This document shows positions 5,198-61,280 of a DNA stretch of 64,000 nt, piece after piece. Source of the DNA: Ostreococcus lucimarinus (lineage: Eukaryota); assembly GCA_000092065.1 (NCBI GenBank), contig CP000596.1; one strand, written 5' to 3'. Below the pieces are notes generated by a model that did no database searches, was not told the DNA's origin, and was given only the letters and a program-made list of their open reading frames with translations. Position numbers and translations under genes: made by a program. Numbering within the stretch: the first letter of the stretch is position 1; every line of letters starts with the position of its first letter.

Positions 5198-5354
5198 GCT
5201 CGGTTAGCTCAGTTGGTTAGAGCGTGGTGCTAATACATTATACGTAGCATTCGATTCGAGCGCGATTCAGTTCGCGCTTCAGACACGTGGACGTTTGTAT
5301 TCAGTCTGATGAAGAGAAACGCCAAGGTCATCGGTTCGACCCCGGTACTGAGCA
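5198..5354 (+). tRNA. tRNA-Ile (anticodon AAU) with an intron of about 83 nt between positions 37 and 38 (about 5236..5318).
   Basis: 5' half GCTCGGTTAGCTCAGTTGGTTAGAGCGTGGTGCTAATA and 3' half ACGCCAAGGTCATCGGTTCGACCCCGGTACTGAGCA are nearly identical to eukaryotic cytosolic tRNA-Ile-AAT. The acceptor stem pairs (GCTCGGT / ACTGAGC, one G-U). The T-loop is TTCGACC. A TTTTTT run lies about 30 nt downstream. Confidence 0.85.
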
Positions 5355-5389: not shown

Positions 5390-5701
5390 TATCAATTTTT
5401 ATCACTTTTTTTATTTCATCTCACTGTATTCATAACCAATTGTCCGTTTCGAGCAGCACTTTTCGCGTTGTCGCGACGCTCGACGTGCGTTCGTCGGGAC
5501 CGACGAATGACTCCGGTCGGACTATTCATATCGCAATCGAATATCGTTGGCGTAGTAACTTTGTGCTCGCTCTTACAAAGGTGGTGTGGCTAAGAATGTC
5601 GGTGGCGGTGGTGGCGACGACACCGCGCGCCGACTTCGGGACAAACGACCGCGGTCGTCAATCGTTTTATCACTCCGCCGTTCAACGAAACGAACGGACG
5701 A

Positions 5702-6318
5702 TTAGTACGGCACTTGACCCGCGAGGATTTCCCCGGCCGAGATAATCGTCGCGAACGAACCCGCGGCGAGAACGTCGACGGCGGTGAACCCCGCCGGATC
5801 GCGCGAGCCGATGTTCTTCGTGCTCGCTTGTTCCACCATCGCCGTGTGGCTCGACGCGCCGTTGTAGTTCTTCTTCACGCTCGGCATAAGGCCGAAGCGC
5901 ATCGCGCCCATGATCGCGGCCGTGTTCGCGCACACAATCTAAGATTTCGAACGATTCGTCGTCAGTCAGTCGTCGTCGTCGCCTCGTCGCCCTAGCTCGA
6001 ATCCTCGTCTTCTCTCGTCCCGCTCGCGCGTCGCTCGCGTCGTCTCGACGCACCATGTTCTCCGTGGACCCGAGCGACCAATCCGCGCGCACGCGCACGT
6101 CGCGCTTCGCCGCCTGTCGTCGCGCGATCGCCGCGAAAGTCAGTCCAAAGTCGCAATCATCGTCAAGATACGCGTATCGTATCGCGATCCGATCGTTCGT
6201 CGCGTTCGGGCGTCGCGCGCACCTTTGCGACGCGAGACGCGCGCTTGACGGCGGAGACGTCGGCGATGGAGGTCTTGGAGGACACGATTTGCGTGCGTTG
6301 CGCGATGGAGGCGTGCAT
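5702..6318 (-). CDS. Photosystem I subunit of the PsaK/PsaG family (nuclear-encoded, chloroplast precursor), two exons: join(5702..5938,6223..6318).
   Basis: Exon 2 encodes ...AIMGAMRFGLMPSVKK...RDPAGFTAVDVLAAGSFATII..., matching PsaK GRFGLAPSANRK...DPAGFTLADTLACG and PsaG DPAGFTIVDVLAWG. On the minus strand an upstream exon, MHASIAQRTQIVSSKTSIADVSAVKRASRVAK (transit-peptide-like), ends at a GT donor (gcaaag|gtgcgc). An AG acceptor precedes ATTGTGTGCGCG; the intron is about 284 nt and phase 0. Confidence 0.7.
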
Positions 6319-44443: not shown

Positions 44444-46246
44444 CTAATCGATACAACGTATGTCTAATACCGCCTCATTACCTAGTATCGTCGGACACTC
44501 GACGACGCCCCGTTCATTTGGTTTTAATTGGCCGTGCTTGTTCGAGCCGAACCCCCACACGCGATTGGTTTCATCGACTCCTACGACATGTTTCGTACCG
44601 GCGCTCACCGACACCAACTTGGGGAGGCCTTCGAGCTTCTGAGGCACGTACACTTTCGACCCGACATGCCCGCACGCATAGTCGTCGTTCGAGCCCCACG
44701 TGAAAAGCTCGCCTTCGTCCGTGAGGCACGCGGAGTGCGCCCCACCCGCCGCGCACGAAACAATCCGATCCGAAACGTCGATTATCGCCATCGCTGGCCA
44801 ATTCCTAGGGCCATCTCGCCCGAGCTGTTTCATCGAGTTGTCGCCCCACGAGTACAAGGCGCCGTCGGTCGTCACCGCCAACGTGTGCTTGGCGCCCATG
44901 TCAAAATCAACCACGCCGTCGATCGTCGCGACGAGCACTGGAGTGTCTCGCACGCATAAGTTATCACCAAGTCCTAAGTTTCCATTTCGATTGTCTCCAA
45001 AGCAATAAAGTCTACCGTCGATGGTTTGGCAGCCCGAGGAATACCGGCAAGCCCGTATTTTAGCGATACGTTTATCCTCGAGCGCGACAATCTGTCTCGG
45101 TGCGCTCGGTGTGTCGAACAATAAAAAGCTCTGGTGCGGTGGCGGCGAACCGCCGCCGTACGTGCGCGATTTTCGTCTACCACCGCCAGCCGTCGGGGAC
45201 CCGCCCAGAGAGATGCGAGACATCGCTTCGCCCATGCGAAACCTCCCGTGGCCGCATTGCCCAGCGGCGTCGCCGCCCCACGACCACACTTTCCCATCAT
45301 CCGTGAGCGCTAAAGCGTGCACTCGTCCCAGCGCAAGCTGAACCACACGTGCGTTTGGACCACCAAAATCACGAGGCGACGGCGGCGTCAGGAGCCCCCG
45401 CAGCTCGTCGCGCACCGCGGACGAGTGCCCAAACATCCCCGGTGGCGAGCCCCTCCGCCCGAAACGCGCCTCGTCGTTGGCGCACTCTGTCGCCGTGACT
45501 AAAACCTCACCGTTATGATTCACTCGAATCACGCACGCGTGTCCAGCCACCGCAATCATCGCGCGACCTAACGCGTCGTCGTCCGCCTCGGTCCCGCAGC
45601 CTCGCGTTCGCGTTCGCCCATCCCTCGTCGTCGTCGTCGTCGCGTTTTCGTTCGCCACCGCCACGACGTTTGGAACATTTTTATCGTCCCCCCACATCCG
45701 CTCTCGCGCCTCGACGAACTTCAGAACATCGATCCACGTCTCTCCGCGTCTCGGCGTCTCCTCCGCGCCGCGTCTCCGCGCGCGCCGCTCCGCCGCGCGC
45801 GCCGCGTCTTCCCCGAACCCCATCCGCGCCAGCGTCGCCAGCGCGTCCGCCGCGCAAAACGACAGCGCGTGTATCCGCACGTCTCTCGGCAGCGCGTCGA
45901 GCGCGCCGAGCTCGGGCGCGTCGTCGCCGTCGCGTCGTTCGTTATCCCGGCCGCGTCGTCCACCCCTCGACGTCGTCGCGGCGTCCCCATCGCGCGCGCG
46001 CGCGTCGTCTCGACGCAGACTCGCGCGAAGCATCGACCGCGCCGTCGACGCGCGCGCGCGTCGCGTTCCGCCGTCGCGCGCCGCGTCGACGGCGCGCGCG
46101 CGCCGAACGAACGGACGCCGCGCGAGGCGAAAATCAGCCGCGATCGCGCGTAACGAAGCGTCGAAACGGCCCATGCGAAACCGCGGCGCGCGGAACGATA
46201 AAAAGTGACGCGCGGCGCGTTCGGGGCGCGGCGAGTCACGGTTCAT
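44444..46246 (-). CDS. RCC1-repeat (regulator of chromosome condensation-like) protein.
   Basis: C-terminal tandem RCC1-type blades (ALYSWGDNSMKQLGRDG; LFTWGSNDDYACGHVG; VWGFGSNKHGQLK). The annotated ATG lies inside the dispersed repeat described below. Confidence 0.7.
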   Translation of the reverse strand: MNRDSPRPERAARHFLSFRAPRFRMGRFDASLRAIAADFRLARRPFVRRARAVDAARDGGTRRARASTARSMLRASLRRDDARARDGDAATTSRGGRRGRDNERRDGDDAPELGALDALPRDVRIHALSFCAADALATLARMGFGEDAARAAERRARRRGAEETPRRGETWIDVLKFVEARERMWGDDKNVPNVVAVANENATTTTTRDGRTRTRGCGTEADDDALGRAMIAVAGHACVIRVNHNGEVLVTATECANDEARFGRRGSPPGMFGHSSAVRDELRGLLTPPSPRDFGGPNARVVQLALGRVHALALTDDGKVWSWGGDAAGQCGHGRFRMGEAMSRISLGGSPTAGGGRRKSRTYGGGSPPPHQSFLLFDTPSAPRQIVALEDKRIAKIRACRYSSGCQTIDGRLYCFGDNRNGNLGLGDNLCVRDTPVLVATIDGVVDFDMGAKHTLAVTTDGALYSWGDNSMKQLGRDGPRNWPAMAIIDVSDRIVSCAAGGAHSACLTDEGELFTWGSNDDYACGHVGSKVYVPQKLEGLPKLVSVSAGTKHVVGVDETNRVWGFGSNKHGQLKPNERGVVECPTILGNEAVLDIRCID

Positions 46247-46312
46247 GACTCGTCATGTGTGTAGGTACTCTCTCAAGGGGCGATATACATTTTTCCGGCG
46301 AGATCTCGAGTA
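46233..46312 (+). repeat. Dispersed promoter-associated repeat, copy A (about 60-80 bp: cacGGTTCATGACTCGTCATGTGTGTAGGTACTCTCTCAAGGGGCGATATACATTTTTCC).
   Basis: Near-identical to copies at 46627..46716 (same orientation) and 61036..61125 (inverted). It contains divergent ATGs (ATGAACCG on one strand, ATGACTCGTCATG on the other) and a TATA-like motif. Confidence 0.6.
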
Positions 46313-46626
46313 TTTTCGACATTTTTTATCACGGTTAAACAGTCTTAACAGGTGATATAGTACGTACATACAAAATGATAAAAAGTTGCTTCCCGGTGTG
46401 ATTTAGCCACCCCCAGATCTCGCGTCGACGTAACTTTTTATCGATCACGAGATACGCATTGAAGTATCATCCGAGACCATGTATATAAAGTAAATCGTAC
46501 AACATTCGGTGATGCTCGAGCAAACAGTCCGCGAGTGGTTTGAAACTCGCGGTCGGACGGACATCGCGATGCACACGCGCGCGCGACGCTGACGTCTGCG
46601 TAAACAGTGTGTTCGGACATGCGGTG

Positions 46627-46716
46627 AGTGGTGTAAAATACGTACATATCCACGGTTCATGACTCGTCATGTGTGTAGGTACTCTCTAAAGGGGCGATAT
46701 ATAAATTTTTCCGCGT
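46627..46716 (+). repeat. Dispersed promoter-associated repeat, copy B (about 85 bp, full length, with a TATATAAAT motif).
   Basis: ggtgtaaaatacgtacatatccacggttcatgactcgtcatgtgtgtaggtactctctaaaggggcgatatataaatttttcc. Copies A and B are direct repeats flanking an AT-rich segment of about 330 bp (46320..46640). Confidence 0.6.
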
Positions 46717-46779: not shown

Positions 46780-47135
46780 CGCGAACGCGCGAACGAGCGA
46801 ACGAACGAGCGAACGAACAGCGAACGAACGACGAACGACATGGCGCTCTCGACGACGGTGCGACGCGAGCGCGAACGCGCGAACGAACGCGACGCGAACG
46901 CGAAGATGCGCGAAGATGCGCTTTCGGTGCCCAGAAGGACTGACGGCGGACGCGCGACGACGCAGATGGCGCGAGACGCCGATAGCTTTTTTCGTGACGT
47001 CTTCAGAGACGCCGACGACGTGCGTACGCGGTCGCGCGCGTGGGGGGGGCGAGGGCGAAGAACGCGCGAGGGTTCTTCGGTTCGACGTCTCGTCTCGACT
47101 CGTCTCGTCTCGTCTCGTCTCGTCTCGCGCGCGCG
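46780..47135. repeat. GC-rich microsatellite-like tracts: (GAACGMG)n at about 46780..46850 and (CGTCT)n at about 47090..47130.
   Basis: Direct reading: cgaacgcgaacgcgaacgcgcgaacgagcgaacgaacgagcgaacgaac... and cgtctcgactcgtctcgtctcgtctcgtctcgtctcgc. Confidence 0.7.
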
Positions 47136-47275
47136 CGAGAAGCGATGCGCGATATTTCCTTTCACGGAAAAAACTTGATCAGAAAGGACATCAAAATGAC
47201 TTGATGACTTTGTTGATTTCTTCAGGCACAAGGGTAGAGATGGACTGACTGAATGCACGCATCGCTGCGCAGTGG

Positions 47276-47288
47276 TTTTCGAATTTTC
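47276..47288. promoter_or_regulatory. Possible minimal heat-shock element (TTCGAAttTTC, which contains GAAnnTTC) about 15 bp upstream of the sHSP ATG.
   Basis: Only two properly spaced nGAAn units. Suggestive because of its position directly upstream of an Hsp20 gene. Confidence 0.25.
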
Positions 47289-47302
47289 ATCTCGCGCCCG
47301 GA

Positions 47303-47719
47303 ATGGGTAACCCGTGGATGCCGTTGGCGCAGCGCACGCCCGGGGCGAGCGGTGCGTTGGCTCCGCTTGCGGGCGGCTTGCGCGTCATTCCTGTCGACGT
47401 TTTAGAGGATGAGAAGTCTTACGTCTTGCGTGCGGATCTTCCCGGGATGAAGAAAGAAGACGTCAACGTCGAAGTTGATGGACAGATCGTTCGAATCAGC
47501 GCGACGAAGAAGGACACGAAGAAGTGGGAGGACGAAGGATACAAGTACCATCGCGCCGAACGCCGAGACACGATGGAGTACTCGCAACGCGCGTTGAGAA
47601 TGCCGCAAAATACTGATTTCAGCAAACTCGATGCGGCGTTCGACGATGGCACTTTGACCGTGACGTTCGGTAAGCAAGCGACCTCGACGCCGACGGCGAA
47701 GCAAATCTCAATCAAGTGA
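47303..47719 (+). CDS. Small heat-shock protein (Hsp20 / alpha-crystallin domain).
   Basis: Alpha-crystallin domain: VDVLEDEKSYVLRADLPGMKKEDVNVEVDGQIVRISA...YKYHRAERRDTMEYSQRALRMPQNTDFSKLDAAFDDGTLTVTF. Confidence 0.85.
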   Translation: MGNPWMPLAQRTPGASGALAPLAGGLRVIPVDVLEDEKSYVLRADLPGMKKEDVNVEVDGQIVRISATKKDTKKWEDEGYKYHRAERRDTMEYSQRALRMPQNTDFSKLDAAFDDGTLTVTFGKQATSTPTAKQISIK

Positions 47720-58230: not shown

Positions 58231-60873
58231 TCATCTCGCGAATGGGTTTGACGCGACTTTGGACTTTTTCGCCGCCTTTGAGGGCGTCGGCGTCGCCACA
58301 GCGTCTCTCTTACCTTCCACAGTCGCGCGCTCGTTTGAGTCTTTGTTTTCGTCGCCCGAGCTGACGAGAGGCGGCGCCGCGCTCTTACGAGCGAGCGGAT
58401 TGCCTTTGGGAGCCGTTGGCGTCGATCGAACCATCGGCGCCGGAGTGTAGCTTTCGGGTTGCGTGTACCCTTGCGTCGGTTCTGGGTCGATTGTCGTTTC
58501 GATGAGCTCATTGATTCGCTCGACGAGCTCGGGTTGACGCGCCACCGCCGGGAGCTTGAGCACCGCTCGCAAACTGTTCGGCTGTCGGAACGTCTCCGCG
58601 ATGTCTGACGCGCGCGAGAGCTTGTTCGCCTTGCAGGCGGTGTGAAAGAGCTTGATGGCTGCTTTTTCGTTTGCTCCCAAAGCCAATCGAGTGTCTTCTC
58701 CGGCACTTTGTGCGACGGACAAAGCCAAGCTCGCTCGGGCGGCTTCGTCTTCGAGGTCACCGACCGATTGTTCGGGAATGATGATCGGCAAAGACATCGG
58801 AAGCATAGAAAGCACAGGTCTTGGGTTCGGCACCGGTCCCGCGCTCGTTCTTGTGATGATGCAATATAAGGTGGAAGCGCAAGATGAAACAATCCAGTGG
58901 TGCTGACCATCCGTGGCCCGCGCTGACGAAGAACGGAAGACGGGCGTCCATGAGCCACCGAATGCGTCGGTGCGCATACGAACGACACCTGCACTATCGC
59001 GAGTAACCAACATGCCTTCCTCAGAAAAGCCCAAGTACGTTAAAGTCGATTGGGTAGATAAAGCAACGCGACCACGCGCGAGTTCCGAGGAGTATCGCAC
59101 GTTGTACACGGCGTACGCGAGAACTTGACTACCTGGGGCTGGTCCGATCGGCGCCGCTTCGTGCCAGACGACAGCCAACGCATCGTCGCTACCGGAAATT
59201 GACACCGCGTCACCTTCGAGGGAGATTATTTGTCGCTGCGCACCACCTAAAGAGTAAATGCGAAGGTAACGCTTGGACGTCACAGCGGCGACCCAAGTCG
59301 AGCCGGTGGCGATTGAAAGTATATCCTCTCCCGCTGGCATCGTCACTTGCCACTCACCATCGTTCGCCCAGTTGTCATACTGTTGAAAGTAAAGCACGCT
59401 TTCGTTTTCGGAATCCTTCATCGGACTCGCGAGCGCGCATCCCTTCTCCCCCGCGACGCCCATCGTGTACCCGTTGTAGTCGGTGATGGTAGGGATGCGT
59501 CCCATGCGCGACGTGTCGTGGAACTGGAATTCAACAGAGTTGAATCCTCCTTCGACAGTGCTCGTAATAGATCCAACCATGGTGTAGGATAAAAACCGAC
59601 GGTTGCTTCCCGGAACCGCGGCAACGGATCCACTTTGGAACGCCGGTTGCGGCTTGGGACCGGCTTCGACGTGCACCACCGACTGCTTCACGTGACTCTG
59701 ACGGCGTCCTTTGACGTCATCGTCGTCGTCGTATTCGACGAAGTCATCTTCTTCATCCAAATCTTCATCCATACCGTCTGCTTCATCGTCGACGAAATCG
59801 CTCGCATTCGTCTCATCGATAGCGCTCACAAAGTCTATCTCGGAAGGCGAAACCTTCGCCGAGGGCGACGAGTACTTGGATGGAACGACGTCGTTCCACA
59901 TCGCCCACTCGCCGTTAACGTTGATGAGCGCCAAAGAGTTACCAGTAGGGTCGAACGAGGCGCCGCAGACGAGCTCGGTGTCCGTCATCTTCGCAATCGC
60001 CAACTTTTTCTTGACGTCCCACACGATGACACTCTTGTCCGCGCTCGCCGTGACCAAGTATTTCCCGTTCGGGGACCAACGGATGAGGGAAATCGCGTCG
60101 GTGTGCCCTTTCAGCTCCCATTCAATCTGTTTAAACGTACCACGCTCGAAGAACGTCACGTCGTTCTCCCGCCCCGGCACGGCTAGGATTTGTCCATCCG
60201 GTCGCCACGCCACGGCGTTCAAAAGCGGCGACTCGCCCGTGGCCAACGGCGCCTCGGTGGCGTGTAGTTTTACATCCCCAGCCTCCTCGTCCTCGCTCGT
60301 GGGCTTCAACAGCCACACGACAACCATGCCGTTCTCATCCGTTGCCGCCAAGTAATCTCCTCGCGGATCGAACGCCACGCTCTTGATGCACTTGCTTCGC
60401 TGACACGGAAACACGTGCAAGACGGTTTTGTCCTCCATCTTGATGACTTTCACCTCGGCGTCCTCCCCCCCCGCGGCGACGTACTTCCCGTCCGCGCTCC
60501 ACGCCACGCAGTGCACTGGCAATGAAAATCTCGTCACGTTCGCCTCGAACGCCTTCTTTTCCAGCGAAAACAGCTTCACCGAGTAATCCGAGCTCGCCGT
60601 CGCCGCGAGCGTCCCGCACGGCGACGCCGCGCACGCGTTGACGCAGTCCGCGTGCGCGTCGTCGAAGTTCTGTTCCACCTCTCCCGTCTCCGCGTCTCGC
60701 ACGATCACGAACGAATCCGCGCCGCACGTCACGATCTTCTTCCTCCCATCCACCGCGCCGCGCGCGACGTCGCACGCCCCCGCGATGTGGGCGTATTCGA
60801 ACGCGCCCTCGCGCGTCTCGAGCGCCGTGACGACGGCGTTCGCACATCTATCCATCGCCCCGCGTTCGAGCAT
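58231..60873 (-). CDS. WDHD1: WDHD1 / AND-1 / Ctf4 homologue (N-terminal WD40 propeller, central SepB domain, disordered C-terminus; no HMG box seen).
   Basis: N-terminal WD repeats, an acidic linker, a central beta-propeller/helical region (…YTMVGSITSTVEGG…RYLRIYSLGGAQRQIISLEGD…) and the overall length fit Ctf4/AND-1. Confidence 0.75.
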   Translation of the reverse strand: MLERGAMDRCANAVVTALETREGAFEYAHIAGACDVARGAVDGRKKIVTCGADSFVIVRDAETGEVEQNFDDAHADCVNACAASPCGTLAATASSDYSVKLFSLEKKAFEANVTRFSLPVHCVAWSADGKYVAAGGEDAEVKVIKMEDKTVLHVFPCQRSKCIKSVAFDPRGDYLAATDENGMVVVWLLKPTSEDEEAGDVKLHATEAPLATGESPLLNAVAWRPDGQILAVPGRENDVTFFERGTFKQIEWELKGHTDAISLIRWSPNGKYLVTASADKSVIVWDVKKKLAIAKMTDTELVCGASFDPTGNSLALINVNGEWAMWNDVVPSKYSSPSAKVSPSEIDFVSAIDETNASDFVDDEADGMDEDLDEEDDFVEYDDDDDVKGRRQSHVKQSVVHVEAGPKPQPAFQSGSVAAVPGSNRRFLSYTMVGSITSTVEGGFNSVEFQFHDTSRMGRIPTITDYNGYTMGVAGEKGCALASPMKDSENESVLYFQQYDNWANDGEWQVTMPAGEDILSIATGSTWVAAVTSKRYLRIYSLGGAQRQIISLEGDAVSISGSDDALAVVWHEAAPIGPAPGSQVLAYAVYNVRYSSELARGRVALSTQSTLTYLGFSEEGMLVTRDSAGVVRMRTDAFGGSWTPVFRSSSARATDGQHHWIVSSCASTLYCIITRTSAGPVPNPRPVLSMLPMSLPIIIPEQSVGDLEDEAARASLALSVAQSAGEDTRLALGANEKAAIKLFHTACKANKLSRASDIAETFRQPNSLRAVLKLPAVARQPELVERINELIETTIDPEPTQGYTQPESYTPAPMVRSTPTAPKGNPLARKSAAPPLVSSGDENKDSNERATVEGKRDAVATPTPSKAAKKSKVASNPFAR

Positions 60874-61035: not shown

Positions 61036-61125
61036 GGACTTTGGAAAAATTTATATATCGCCCCTTGAGAGAGTACCTACACACATGACGAGTCATGAAC
61101 CGTGGATATGTACGTATTTTACACC
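61036..61125 (-). repeat. Dispersed promoter-associated repeat, copy C (inverted relative to copies A and B).
   Basis: Its reverse complement is ggtgtaaaatacgtacatatccacggttcatgactcgtcatgtgtgtaggtactctctcaaggggcgatatataaatttttcc, 84 of 85 identical to copy B. It lies between divergent genes (Ctf4-like, ATG 60873, minus; coiled-coil gene, plus). Confidence 0.6.
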
Positions 61126-61280
61126 GTTTAGTGCCATCTACAATAGAGTATTCCTACCTCGGTGAAAAACACGTTCGCCTCGCCGGCGGACGGGAACGAG
61201 CGCGCGCGTCGCGGGCCGGGCGGGGCGTCGACGCCGACGCGAGTGCGCGACGCCGCGCGGCGAGACCGAGGCGCGCGAAC

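What the first reader, a model, noticed from the sequence alone, without database searches (positions are those of the whole stretch)
46233..46716. Dispersed ~85-bp repeat with divergent ATGs and TATA motif at three promoters (46233, 46627 and inverted at 61036)
The same element (ggtgtaaaatacgtacatatccacGGTTCATGACTCGTCATGtgtgtaggtactctctMaaggggcgaTATATAAAtttttcc) occurs three times in 64 kb. Two copies are about 84/85 identical; the third is a shorter (about 60-80 bp) copy with a few substitutions. Each copy sits in a 5' intergenic region between or upstream of genes. It carries ATGAACCG on one strand, which serves as the annotated ATG of the RCC1 gene in copy A and begins the ORF toward the coiled-coil gene in copy C. 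It carries ATGACTCGTCATG on the other strand and a TATA-box-like motif near that end. Copies A and B are direct repeats bracketing a 330-bp AT-rich insert-like segment (46320..46640) in an otherwise roughly 68% GC genome. This looks like either a small mobile element (TDR-type MITE or introner-like) that supplies promoter/TSS sequence, or a conserved bidirectional core-promoter module.
Basis: seen in the sequence. Interest (0 to 1): 0.55.

Follow-up and report, generated by a model that had tools for sequence, protein, structure and literature searches.

The report
Leftover ends of a Mutator-like transposon
The three copies of the ~85-bp repeat are leftover terminal inverted repeats of a Mutator-like DNA transposon family in the green picoalga Ostreococcus lucimarinus; they vary between wild strains and sit just upstream of genes, which is ordinary transposon biology with a possible promoter side-effect.

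Summary
The repeat is real. Copy B (46630-46712, +) and copy C (61043-61125, -) match at 82/83. Copy A (46237-46296, +) is a 5'-truncated 60-nt copy.

It is not a host promoter module, an introner, or a direct-repeat MITE. It is the ~90-bp terminal inverted repeat (TIR) of a Mutator-like element (MULE) family of Ostreococcus lucimarinus.

- **Dispersal:** a metagenome scan found about 25 or more distinct sites. All share one sharp outer end (...GATATATAAATTTTTCC), with variable truncation on the inner side.
- **Complete elements:** these carry two inverted copies and 8-9-bp target-site duplications.
- **Transposase:** internal ORFs are deletion derivatives of a protein whose fuller relative hits the Pfam MULE transposase and Ulp1 protease domains.
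- **Window copies are immobile remnants:**
  - A is a TIR stub with a partial target duplication.
  - B is a solo TIR that replaced 292 bp of native promoter DNA upstream of a small heat-shock gene.
  - C is one TIR plus about 50 bp of internal sequence upstream of CTF4.
- **Polymorphism:** A and B are absent from some wild haplotypes.
- **The "AT-rich insert":** it is an unrelated small polymorphic MITE plus native intergenic DNA.
- **Position bias:** 16 of 17 informative TIR ends face a gene's 5' end.

Promoter donation by the TIR's TATA box is plausible but untested. This is a new member of a known kind, of modest interest.

The parts
46237..46296 (+). Copy A: stub of the right-end TIR (family positions 1-62, outer end at 46296). 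The TATA is degraded in this strain (GATATACA). GGCGAG at 46230-46235 and GGCGAGAT at 46297-46304 are the remains of a target-site duplication.
   Evidence: BLAST against the TIR consensus. The empty site GGGGCGCGG|CGAGATCTCGCG is seen in haplotypes L001 and L007.
46309..46414 (.). Unrelated small MITE ('MITE2'). Its right TIR CCCGGTGTGATTTAGCCACCCCC is intact and its left TIR is lost in this strain. It is flanked by the 8-bp target duplication AGATCTCG (46301-46308 and 46415-46422).
   Evidence: A full 126-bp copy with 23-bp TIRs is at L004:8987-9112. It is absent from L001, L002 and L006-L010.
46415..46629 (.). Native intergenic DNA between the RCC1 and HSP genes. It is not part of any repeat.
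   Evidence: Present and alignable in all 11 haplotypes, including those without A and B.
46630..46712 (+). Copy B: solo right-end TIR (family positions 1-83, outer end at 46712, TATATAAA at 46698-46705). It takes the place of 292 bp of native promoter-proximal DNA.
   Evidence: L001 and L007 carry the unique 292-bp GC-rich segment instead. The junctions show GGTG and C microhomology.
46840..47719 (+). Small heat-shock protein gene downstream of B. Probable two-exon model: 46840-47019 + 47273-47719 (208 aa). The deposited model is only 47303-47719 (138 aa, XP_001421852).
   Evidence: This is the only in-frame GT..AG join. The end of exon 1 (MARDADSFFRDVFRDADD) is conserved in the homologue P0087. 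Pfam HSP20. Identity of the protein.
61043..61182 (-). Copy C: half element. It comprises the TIR (61043-61132, outer end at 61043, TATA at 61050-61057) plus about 50 nt of subterminal element sequence (61133-61182). The second TIR is missing.
   Evidence: 140-nt match at 97% to the 'type 1' end of the complete element in L022. Present in all nine CTF4-linked haplotypes whose sequence is readable there, with allelic variants.
58231..60873 (-). CTF4/WDHD1-like WD40 gene. Its ATG lies 169 bp beyond the outer end of copy C.
   Evidence: ORF, source name and Pfam, distance.
44444..46246 (-). RCC1-repeat gene ORF. Its first ATG falls inside copy A, but the Arg-rich N-terminal ~70-85 codons are probably not coding.
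   Evidence: ORF. Variable start calls of 515-607 aa across haplotypes.

Best explanation
The ~85-bp repeat is the terminal inverted repeat (TIR, about 90 bp, outer terminus 5'-GGAAAAATTTATATATCGCC...) of a Mutator-like DNA transposon (MULE) family. The family lives in Ostreococcus lucimarinus, and a related form lives in O. tauri.

Intact or internally deleted elements carry two inverted copies and are flanked by 8-9-bp target-site duplications. The three copies in this window are immobile remnants left after insertion followed by deletion:
- **A** is a 60-nt TIR stub that keeps 6 of 8 bp of one target duplication.
- **B** is a solo 83-nt TIR. The rest of its element, together with 292 bp of adjacent host promoter DNA, was deleted.
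- **C** is one TIR plus about 50 nt of internal sequence.

They lie upstream of genes because this family, like other MULEs, inserts into or is tolerated at gene 5' regions.

Shown: the repeat family, its sharp terminus, TIR architecture, target duplications, presence/absence polymorphism and linkage to MULE/Ulp1 protein remnants.

Inferred: the order of events (insertion, then deletion). Also inferred: that the TIR's terminal TATA box now acts as the core promoter for the HSP gene (B) and possibly CTF4 (C).
For: **Dispersed family with one fixed end.**
- A 20-mer core finds 37 metagenome loci, and about 25 or more distinct flanks.
- Every copy starts at family position 1, while the inner end varies (62, 65, 72, 80, 82, 83 or 90+ nt).

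**Complete elements with two inverted copies.**
- L022:3842-4648 has the target duplication TCGGATCG.
- L013:1366-2499 has the target duplication CTCTTGACG.
- Short MITE-like forms exist at L011:239-459 and L044:5860-6127.

**Empty and filled sites in wild haplotypes of the same locus.** L001 and L007 lack A and B. The right-hand boundary of each difference coincides exactly with the TIR terminus.

**Transposase link.**
- Internal ORFs share N- and C-termini with longer proteins.
- L060 has a TIR plus a protein with DSTF, CxxH, ESFH and CSC motifs.
- The related contig L061 hits Pfam MULE (E=2.9e-11, 44 bits against a cut-off of 27.6) and Peptidase_C48/Ulp1 (E=2e-17).

**Related families.** A homologous element with 85-90% identical TIRs is present in O. 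tauri. Motifs conserved across subfamilies are ACGGTTCATGACTCGT, GGACTCTCT and the terminal ATATAAATTTTTCC.

**Position bias.** 16 of 17 informative termini face a gene start 100-560 bp away.

**Negative searches.** No Rfam family hits the region. No viral contig carries the core.
Against: - No single contig shows both TIRs around an intact transposase gene.
- The MULE-domain hit comes from a diverged relative without TIRs on its short contig. It was obtained from a translation that I stitched by hand across three frameshifts.
- Only two elements show clean target duplications. Several paired-TIR elements (L011, L044) show none, so rearrangement or recombination between copies must be invoked.
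- The polarity of the B event (insertion then deletion, rather than replacement of B by 292 bp) is inferred from boundary logic, not from an outgroup.
- Promoter use of the TIR TATA has no transcript evidence.
Confidence: 0.88

Rival explanations
1. Exapted promoter. The TIR remnants B and C persist at high frequency because their terminal TATA box, and perhaps the ATGAC..GTCAT palindrome, now supply the core promoter of the downstream HSP and CTF4 genes. The element would then work as a portable, possibly bidirectional, promoter module. This extends the transposon origin rather than contradicting it.
For: - B replaced 292 bp that ended in a native AT-rich TATA-like stretch 12-25 bp from the junction. 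It puts its own TATATAAA 8-15 bp from the same junction, so TATA spacing to downstream DNA is kept within about 10 bp.
- The B allele is the majority: 8 of 10 HSP-linked contigs, plus the window and L028, L035 and L036.
- C is present in all nine CTF4-linked contigs whose sequence is readable there, 169 bp from the ATG.
- 16 of 17 TIR termini face gene starts, and genes also start 50-650 bp inward of the TIRs.
- From my own knowledge: Mu TIRs carry promoters, and an outward-reading promoter in Mu1 rescues hcf106 (Barkan and Martienssen 1991).
Against: - There are no transcription-start or expression data.
- The MULE preference for inserting in 5' regions explains the position bias on its own.
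- Haplotypes without A and B exist, so the genes work without them.
- Copy A faces no gene on its outer side, and its TATA is mutated in the reference strain.
Confidence: 0.4
2. A conserved host cis-regulatory module (bidirectional core promoter) that is not mobile, and is shared by a few co-regulated genes.
For: All three window copies are in 5' intergenic DNA and contain a TATA motif and a palindrome.
Against: - 97-100% identity runs over 60-90 contiguous nt at about 25 or more unrelated sites.
- The terminus is sharp.
- Copies occur as inverted pairs with target duplications, and empty sites exist in wild haplotypes.
- The repeats are linked to transposase remnants.
- The downstream genes are functionally unrelated (HSP20, CTF4, sugar transporters and others).
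Confidence: 0.03
3. A and B are the terminal direct repeats of a single ~480-bp inserted element (a TDR-type MITE), or the two copies arose by local segmental duplication.
For: A and B are in the same orientation, 334 bp apart, around lower-GC DNA.
Against: - The DNA between them is native and is present without A and B (L001, L007).
- A has its own target-duplication remnant, and B is a replacement allele.
- The extra AT-rich piece is a separate MITE with its own TIRs and 8-bp duplication, and it segregates independently.
Confidence: 0.02
4. The family belongs to another 8-bp-duplication superfamily (hAT, P or Merlin-like) rather than Mutator. The MULE/Ulp1 protein remnants would then be captured cargo or an unrelated neighbour.
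For: - One of the two clean duplications is 8 bp.
- No contig has intact TIRs plus an intact MULE transposase.
- Pfam finds nothing in the TIR-bounded ORFs themselves.
Against: - TIRs of about 90 bp and a 9-bp duplication are typical of MULEs.
- The TIR-bounded ORFs are homologous over their N- and C-termini to proteins whose central part is a MULE DDE domain.
- The Ulp1 protease is a known MULE passenger (KI-MULEs; my own knowledge).
Confidence: 0.07

Closest known systems
Mutator / MuDR and Mutator-like elements (MULEs) of plants, fungi and algae
   Same: - Long TIRs (about 90 bp here).
- 8-9-bp target-site duplications.
- A DDE transposase with the Pfam MULE domain in a related copy.
- Many internally deleted non-autonomous derivatives that share only the ends.
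- Insertion next to gene 5' ends.
- TIRs containing promoter-like sequence.
- Deletions that extend from the element into flanking DNA.
   Different: - The TIR is shorter than MuDR's ~215 bp.
- A TATA box lies only 8 nt from the terminus.
- No intact autonomous copy was recovered.
- The window copies are single TIRs and cannot move.
KI-MULEs (Kaonashi) / CUMULE: MULEs that carry a Ulp1-like protease
   Same: The related contig L061 encodes a Peptidase_C48 (Ulp1) domain directly upstream of the MULE transposase domain.
   Different: - Those are land-plant families; this one is in a prasinophyte alga.
- Linkage of the Ulp1-bearing copy to this exact TIR family was not shown.
- Whether the protease and transposase are one protein or two is not resolved.
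Pack-MULEs and MITEs (non-autonomous TIR elements)
   Same: - There are short 221-1134-bp elements with the family TIRs and variable internal sequence.
- They show a strong bias toward gene 5' regions.
- Partial tandem duplication of TIR ends occurs (L011:11509, L012), as in MULEs with multiple TIRs (PMC3310237, abstract).
   Different: - Copy number is low (tens, not thousands).
- Internal sequence is mostly transposase remnant rather than proven captured host genes.
Mu-suppressible alleles (outward-reading promoter in the Mu1 TIR, hcf106)
   Same: A TIR placed just upstream of a gene could supply transcription initiation, which is what is proposed for B and C.
   Different: - That case is demonstrated experimentally in maize.
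- Here it is inferred only from TATA position and allele structure.
Introner elements of Micromonas
   Same: Both are short dispersed repeats in a Mamiellales genome.
   Different: - Introners sit in introns, carry splice sites and lack TIRs.
- None of that applies here.

Membership tests
Mutator-like element (MULE) superfamily | Long terminal inverted repeats (tens to hundreds of bp) bounding the element | tested here: met
   Elements with two inverted ~90-nt copies occur in L022, L013, L011, L044, L032 and L063. All copies share the same outer terminus.
Mutator-like element (MULE) superfamily | Target-site duplication of about 8-11 bp (typically 9) | tested here: inconclusive
   - Clean duplications of 8 bp (TCGGATCG, L022) and 9 bp (CTCTTGACG, L013).
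- A 6-of-8-bp remnant at window copy A.
- An imperfect 7-nt match at L032.
- None at L011 or L044.
The sample is small.
Mutator-like element (MULE) superfamily | Encodes, or derives from an element encoding, a DDE transposase with the MULE domain (PF10551) | tested here: inconclusive
   - PF10551 hits at E=2.9e-11, above the cut-off, in a hand-stitched translation of the related contig L061.
- TIR-bounded ORFs are homologous to the N- and C-terminal parts of that protein family.
- No contig shows TIRs plus an intact transposase.
Mutator-like element (MULE) superfamily | Mobility: presence/absence polymorphism at precise element boundaries | tested here: met
   Copies A and B are absent from L001 and L007, with boundaries at the TIR terminus. 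Site C has alternative alleles.
MITE (complete miniature inverted-repeat element) | Both TIRs present, under ~800 bp, flanked by a target duplication | tested here: not met
   Each of the window copies A, B and C has only one TIR. The family does include MITE-like members elsewhere (L011, 221 bp). The separate element at 46309-46414 is a MITE of another family.
Terminal-direct-repeat MITE formed by A + insert + B | The two direct repeats and the DNA between them are inserted or absent as one unit | tested here: not met
   The intervening DNA is present without A and B. A, MITE2 and B segregate independently.
Introner element | Located within introns and carrying splice signals | tested here: not met
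   All window copies are intergenic.
Known structured RNA gene (Rfam) | Match to a covariance model | tested here: not met
   Nothing was found at gathering threshold in the region. Only chance-level hits appeared at E<=10.
Functional core promoter (TATA-dependent) for HSP and CTF4 | Transcription initiates about 25-35 bp downstream of the TIR TATA | not testable with these tools
   No transcript 5'-end data were available.

The most novel reading that the evidence does not exclude
The TIR remnants are more than debris, in two ways.

First, B is a naturally segregating promoter swap. A transposon end replaced the native TATA-proximal 292 bp of a heat-shock gene and now drives it. C does the same for CTF4.

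Second, the inverted copies (A or B against C, 14-15 kb apart) recombine to flip the intervening 10-gene segment in wild populations. Contig L049 hints at this: it joins RCC1-A directly to C-CTF4.

Together these would make a recently active MULE family a driver of regulatory and structural variation in a genome that has been described as nearly transposon-free.
Probability: 0.15. Interest if true: 0.6.

Novelty: new member of a known kind. Interest (0 to 1): 0.33.

Why it matters
For annotation, it removes a false lead. The repeat is transposon debris, not a new regulatory module.
- The ATG in copy A should not be used as the RCC1 start.
- The HSP20 model (138 aa) is probably missing a first exon.

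For Mamiellales biology, it documents a recently active MULE family, with copies 97-100% identical and sites polymorphic among metagenomes from several independent samples. A 2026 preprint describes O. lucimarinus as largely lacking transposable elements (10.1101/2025.04.21.649811).

It also provides a concrete natural allele pair (B versus the 292-bp native promoter). That pair would let someone test whether a transposon end can take over a core promoter in a very compact eukaryotic genome.

Tried and rejected
- **Rfam.** I searched the whole window at gathering threshold and the region at E<=10. Only a tRNA far away and chance hits appeared, so an RNA gene was rejected.
- **Viral contigs.** A scan with a 20-mer core found 0 hits, so there is no sign of a prasinovirus origin.
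- **Pfam on TIR-bounded ORFs and their closest homologues.** Only a sub-threshold DUF7739 hit appeared. My visual 'SWIM-like' CSC...C motif was not confirmed by Pfam.
- **Autonomous copy.** A homologue search with the N-terminal MULE-region fragment gave only four short proteins. An intact autonomous copy was not found.
- **Spliced HSP product.** The homologue search gave only indirect support for exon 1.
- **B and C as two ends of one insertion.** I tested whether their outer flanks are reverse complements, as a shared target duplication would require (GCGTCTCG against AAAGTCCG/CGAGTCCG). They are not.
- **Recombinant junctions.** I looked for them (C's inner flank joined to A's or B's outer flank) among all 64 copies. 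None were found apart from L049.
- **Other copies in the window.** nhmmer and BLAST with extended element ends found only A, B and C.
- **The 292-bp alternative allele.** It is not a repeat.
Full report
**1. Observation**

The window is nuclear DNA of a eukaryote. It contains a tRNA gene with an 86-nt intron. Two of its proteins are exact matches to Ostreococcus lucimarinus CCE9901: the 22-kDa heat-shock protein XP_001421852 on a 428,333-bp record, and a CTF4-like protein.

- A 34-nt core occurs exactly three times, with none in 100 shuffles.
- B (46630-46712, +) and C (61043-61125, -) are 99% complementary over 83 nt.
- A (46237-46296, +) lacks the first ~21 nt and has a damaged TATA motif.
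- Window G+C is 59.7%, not 68%.

**2. What the repeat is**

A scan of public metagenome contigs with a 20-nt core returned 37 loci. I oriented and lined up all 64 copies. They end at one sharp boundary...GATATATAAATTTTTCC. Beyond it, about 25 or more different flanks follow.

On the other side, similarity continues into a few shared subterminal sequence types, or is cut off at variable points (62 to 90+ nt). That is the signature of a transposon end.

Complete elements are present.
- L022:3842-4648 is 807 bp, with two inverted copies flanked by the direct repeat TCGGATCG.
- L013:1366-2499 is 1134 bp, flanked by CTCTTGACG.
- Miniature forms of 221 and 268 bp occur at L011:239-459 and L044:5860-6127.

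The repeat is therefore a ~90-bp terminal inverted repeat (TIR), with 8-9-bp target-site duplications.

**3. Which transposon**

The ORFs inside the short elements have no Pfam domain. They do belong to a family of about 50 proteins, including one from O. tauri.

Longer members keep the same N-terminus (MEDECDDDPFDD...) and C-terminus (...KASKGEQISIRNYLS). Between these they add sequence with DSTF, CxxH and ESFH motifs. One such copy (L060) ends in the TIR.

A related contig (L061) carries the fullest version. I stitched its translation by hand across three frameshifts. It hits the Pfam MULE transposase domain (E=2.9e-11, 44.1 bits against a cut-off of 27.6). The ORF just upstream hits the Ulp1 protease domain (E=2e-17).

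An O. tauri locus holds a homologous element with TIRs 85-90% identical. Across diverged subfamilies, the conserved TIR blocks are ACGGTTCATGACTCGT, GGACTCTCT and the terminal ATATAAATTTTTCC.

The best assignment is a Mutator-like element family with a Ulp1 passenger, as in plant KI-MULEs (my own knowledge). The caveat is that no single contig shows both TIRs around an intact transposase.

**4. The three window copies, read against wild haplotypes**

Looking up the HSP20 and CTF4 proteins returned 20 contigs of the same species from independent samples, about 99.5% identical in the flanks.

*Copy A.* Two haplotypes (L001, L007) have the empty site GGGGCGCGG|CGAGATCTCGCG. Filled alleles read ...GGCGAG-[TIR 62 nt]-GGCGAGAT.... 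This is one full and one partial copy of an 8-bp target duplication around a TIR stub. That is what an insertion followed by an internal deletion would leave.

*Copy B.* The same two haplotypes carry a unique 292-bp GC-rich segment in place of B. The right boundary of the difference is exactly the TIR terminus. The left boundary shows GGTG microhomology. The simplest history is an insertion, followed by a deletion that removed the rest of the element plus 292 bp of host DNA.

*Copy C.* It is a TIR plus about 50 nt of 'type 1' internal sequence (61043-61182). It is present in all nine CTF4-linked contigs whose sequence is readable there. Two of them (L052, L055) have a different inner part, in which the element's other 11-nt terminus is fused to the right end.

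**5. The 'AT-rich insert' between A and B**

This is two things.
- 46309-46414 is a different small MITE. A full 126-bp copy with 23-bp TIRs is in L004. Its 8-bp duplication is AGATCTCG. It is present in only some haplotypes.
- 46415-46629 is native intergenic DNA found in every haplotype.

A, this MITE and B segregate independently, so A and B are not the ends of one element.

**6. Relation to genes**

B ends 127 bp before the ATG at 46840. That ATG most likely opens the first exon of the heat-shock gene. The two-exon model is 46840-47019 + 47273-47719, giving 208 aa. The end of exon 1 is conserved in a homologue. C ends 169 bp before the CTF4 ATG.

Family-wide, I looked at the outer flank of each distinct terminus. 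In 16 of 17 informative cases, the nearest long ORF starts 100-560 bp away and points away from the TIR. Against a 50% expectation, the one-sided binomial p is about 1.4e-4. This is a crude ORF-based call, and the null expectation is approximate.

The pattern fits two explanations, and I cannot separate them:
- the known MULE preference for gene 5' regions;
- promoter donation.

One detail favours a functional take-over at B. The deleted native segment ended in an AT-rich TATA-like stretch 12-25 bp from the junction. The TIR puts TATATAAA 8-15 bp from the same junction.

**7. Mechanism, committed**

The window copies no longer transpose, because each has a single end. They are scars of MULE insertions into promoter regions (confidence about 0.88).

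I put about 0.4 on the further claim that the TATA box of B, and perhaps of C, now serves as the core promoter of the downstream gene.

- The one in A merely opens a long GC-rich ORF. Gene callers start that ORF at different places in other haplotypes.
- The one in C opens a 180-aa ORF out of frame with the coiled-coil gene.

**8. Possible inversion**

One contig (L049) joins the RCC1-A flank directly to the C-CTF4 flank, through a hybrid TIR. It then runs backwards through the window to 52227. That is what recombination between inverted copies A and C would produce.

I leave this open, for these reasons:
- the assembly is scaffolded, with Ns 60 bp from the junction;
- its sister sample has an N-gap over the same TIR;
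- by my arithmetic from the coordinates given, the contig stops within about 200 bp of B;
- no other recombinant junction was seen among 64 copies.

**9. Known or new**

MULEs have been annotated in Mamiellales, especially O. tauri. O. lucimarinus has been described as largely lacking transposable elements (bioRxiv 10.1101/2025.04.21.649811). Transposon-related genes have been suggested as agents of rearrangement on outlier chromosomes (PMC5082852).

I found no description of this TIR family or of these alleles in three literature searches. This is a new member of a known kind. Most family members lie in low-GC (45-50%) DNA, unlike this window.

**10. Verdict**

The pure promoter-module reading is rejected. 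Interest is modest and rests mainly on the natural promoter-replacement allele and the evidence of recent MULE activity.

Noticed in passing
window 46309-46414 (TSD 46301-46308 and 46415-46422); full copy L004:8987-9112: A second, unrelated small MITE lies a few bp from copy A's insertion site. It is 126 bp with 23-bp TIRs (GGGGGTGGCTAAATCACACCGGG) and an 8-bp target duplication (AGATCTCG). It is polymorphic among haplotypes, and in the reference strain its left TIR has been replaced by other AT-rich sequence.
   Followed up: partly
L049:5778-5837 (JGI Ga0101440_100301) against window 46237-46296 and 61043-61104: This contig joins RCC1-copy A directly to copy C-CTF4. The result is either a ~14.7-kb inversion between inverted TIR copies or a scaffolding chimera. 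Ns lie 60 bp away, and the sister sample L048 has an N-gap over the TIR.
   Followed up: partly
window 46840-47719: The deposited HSP20 model (138 aa, 47303-47719) is probably truncated. A GT..AG intron (47020-47272) joins an upstream exon to give a 208-aa protein, which fits the name '22-kDa heat-shock protein'.
   Followed up: partly
window ~47085-47140 (inside the putative HSP intron): A CGTCT/CTCGT-type short tandem repeat varies in length among haplotypes (alignment columns 1520-1600).
   Followed up: no
window ~46035-46095 (RCC1 upstream ORF region): A ~61-bp deletion polymorphism occurs in haplotypes L002 and L008, in the Arg-rich 5' part of the RCC1 ORF. This supports the view that this part is not coding (columns 239-299).
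   Followed up: no
L052 and L055, about 5700-5835 (site C alleles): At the same site as copy C, these alleles have the element's opposite 11-nt terminus (GGAAAAATTTA) fused to a 'type 2' right end. This shows several independent internal-deletion or recombination derivatives at one locus.
   Followed up: partly
L011:11509-11634 and L012:8627-8726: The terminal ~35 nt of the TIR (GGTACTCTCTAAAGGGGCGATATATAAATTTTTCC) is tandemly duplicated at the element end. This is reminiscent of MULEs with multiple TIRs.
   Followed up: no
L037, 3735-4388 nt inward of its TIR: A fragment of a PIF/Harbinger-type DDE transposase lies near a family TIR in low-GC DNA (Pfam Plant_tran E=6.5e-17, DDE_Tnp_4). It is probably a different transposon.
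   Followed up: no
L042:3317-8300: A family TIR lies next to a nucleotide-sugar transporter, a GT29 sialyltransferase-like gene and a methyltransferase-like ORF, in 45% GC DNA. No partner TIR was found within 8 kb. Whether MULE ends bound or move such glycosylation-gene blocks was not examined.
   Followed up: no
window 5198-5354: A tRNA gene with an unusually long 86-nt intron (Rfam tRNA, 42.9 bits).
   Followed up: no
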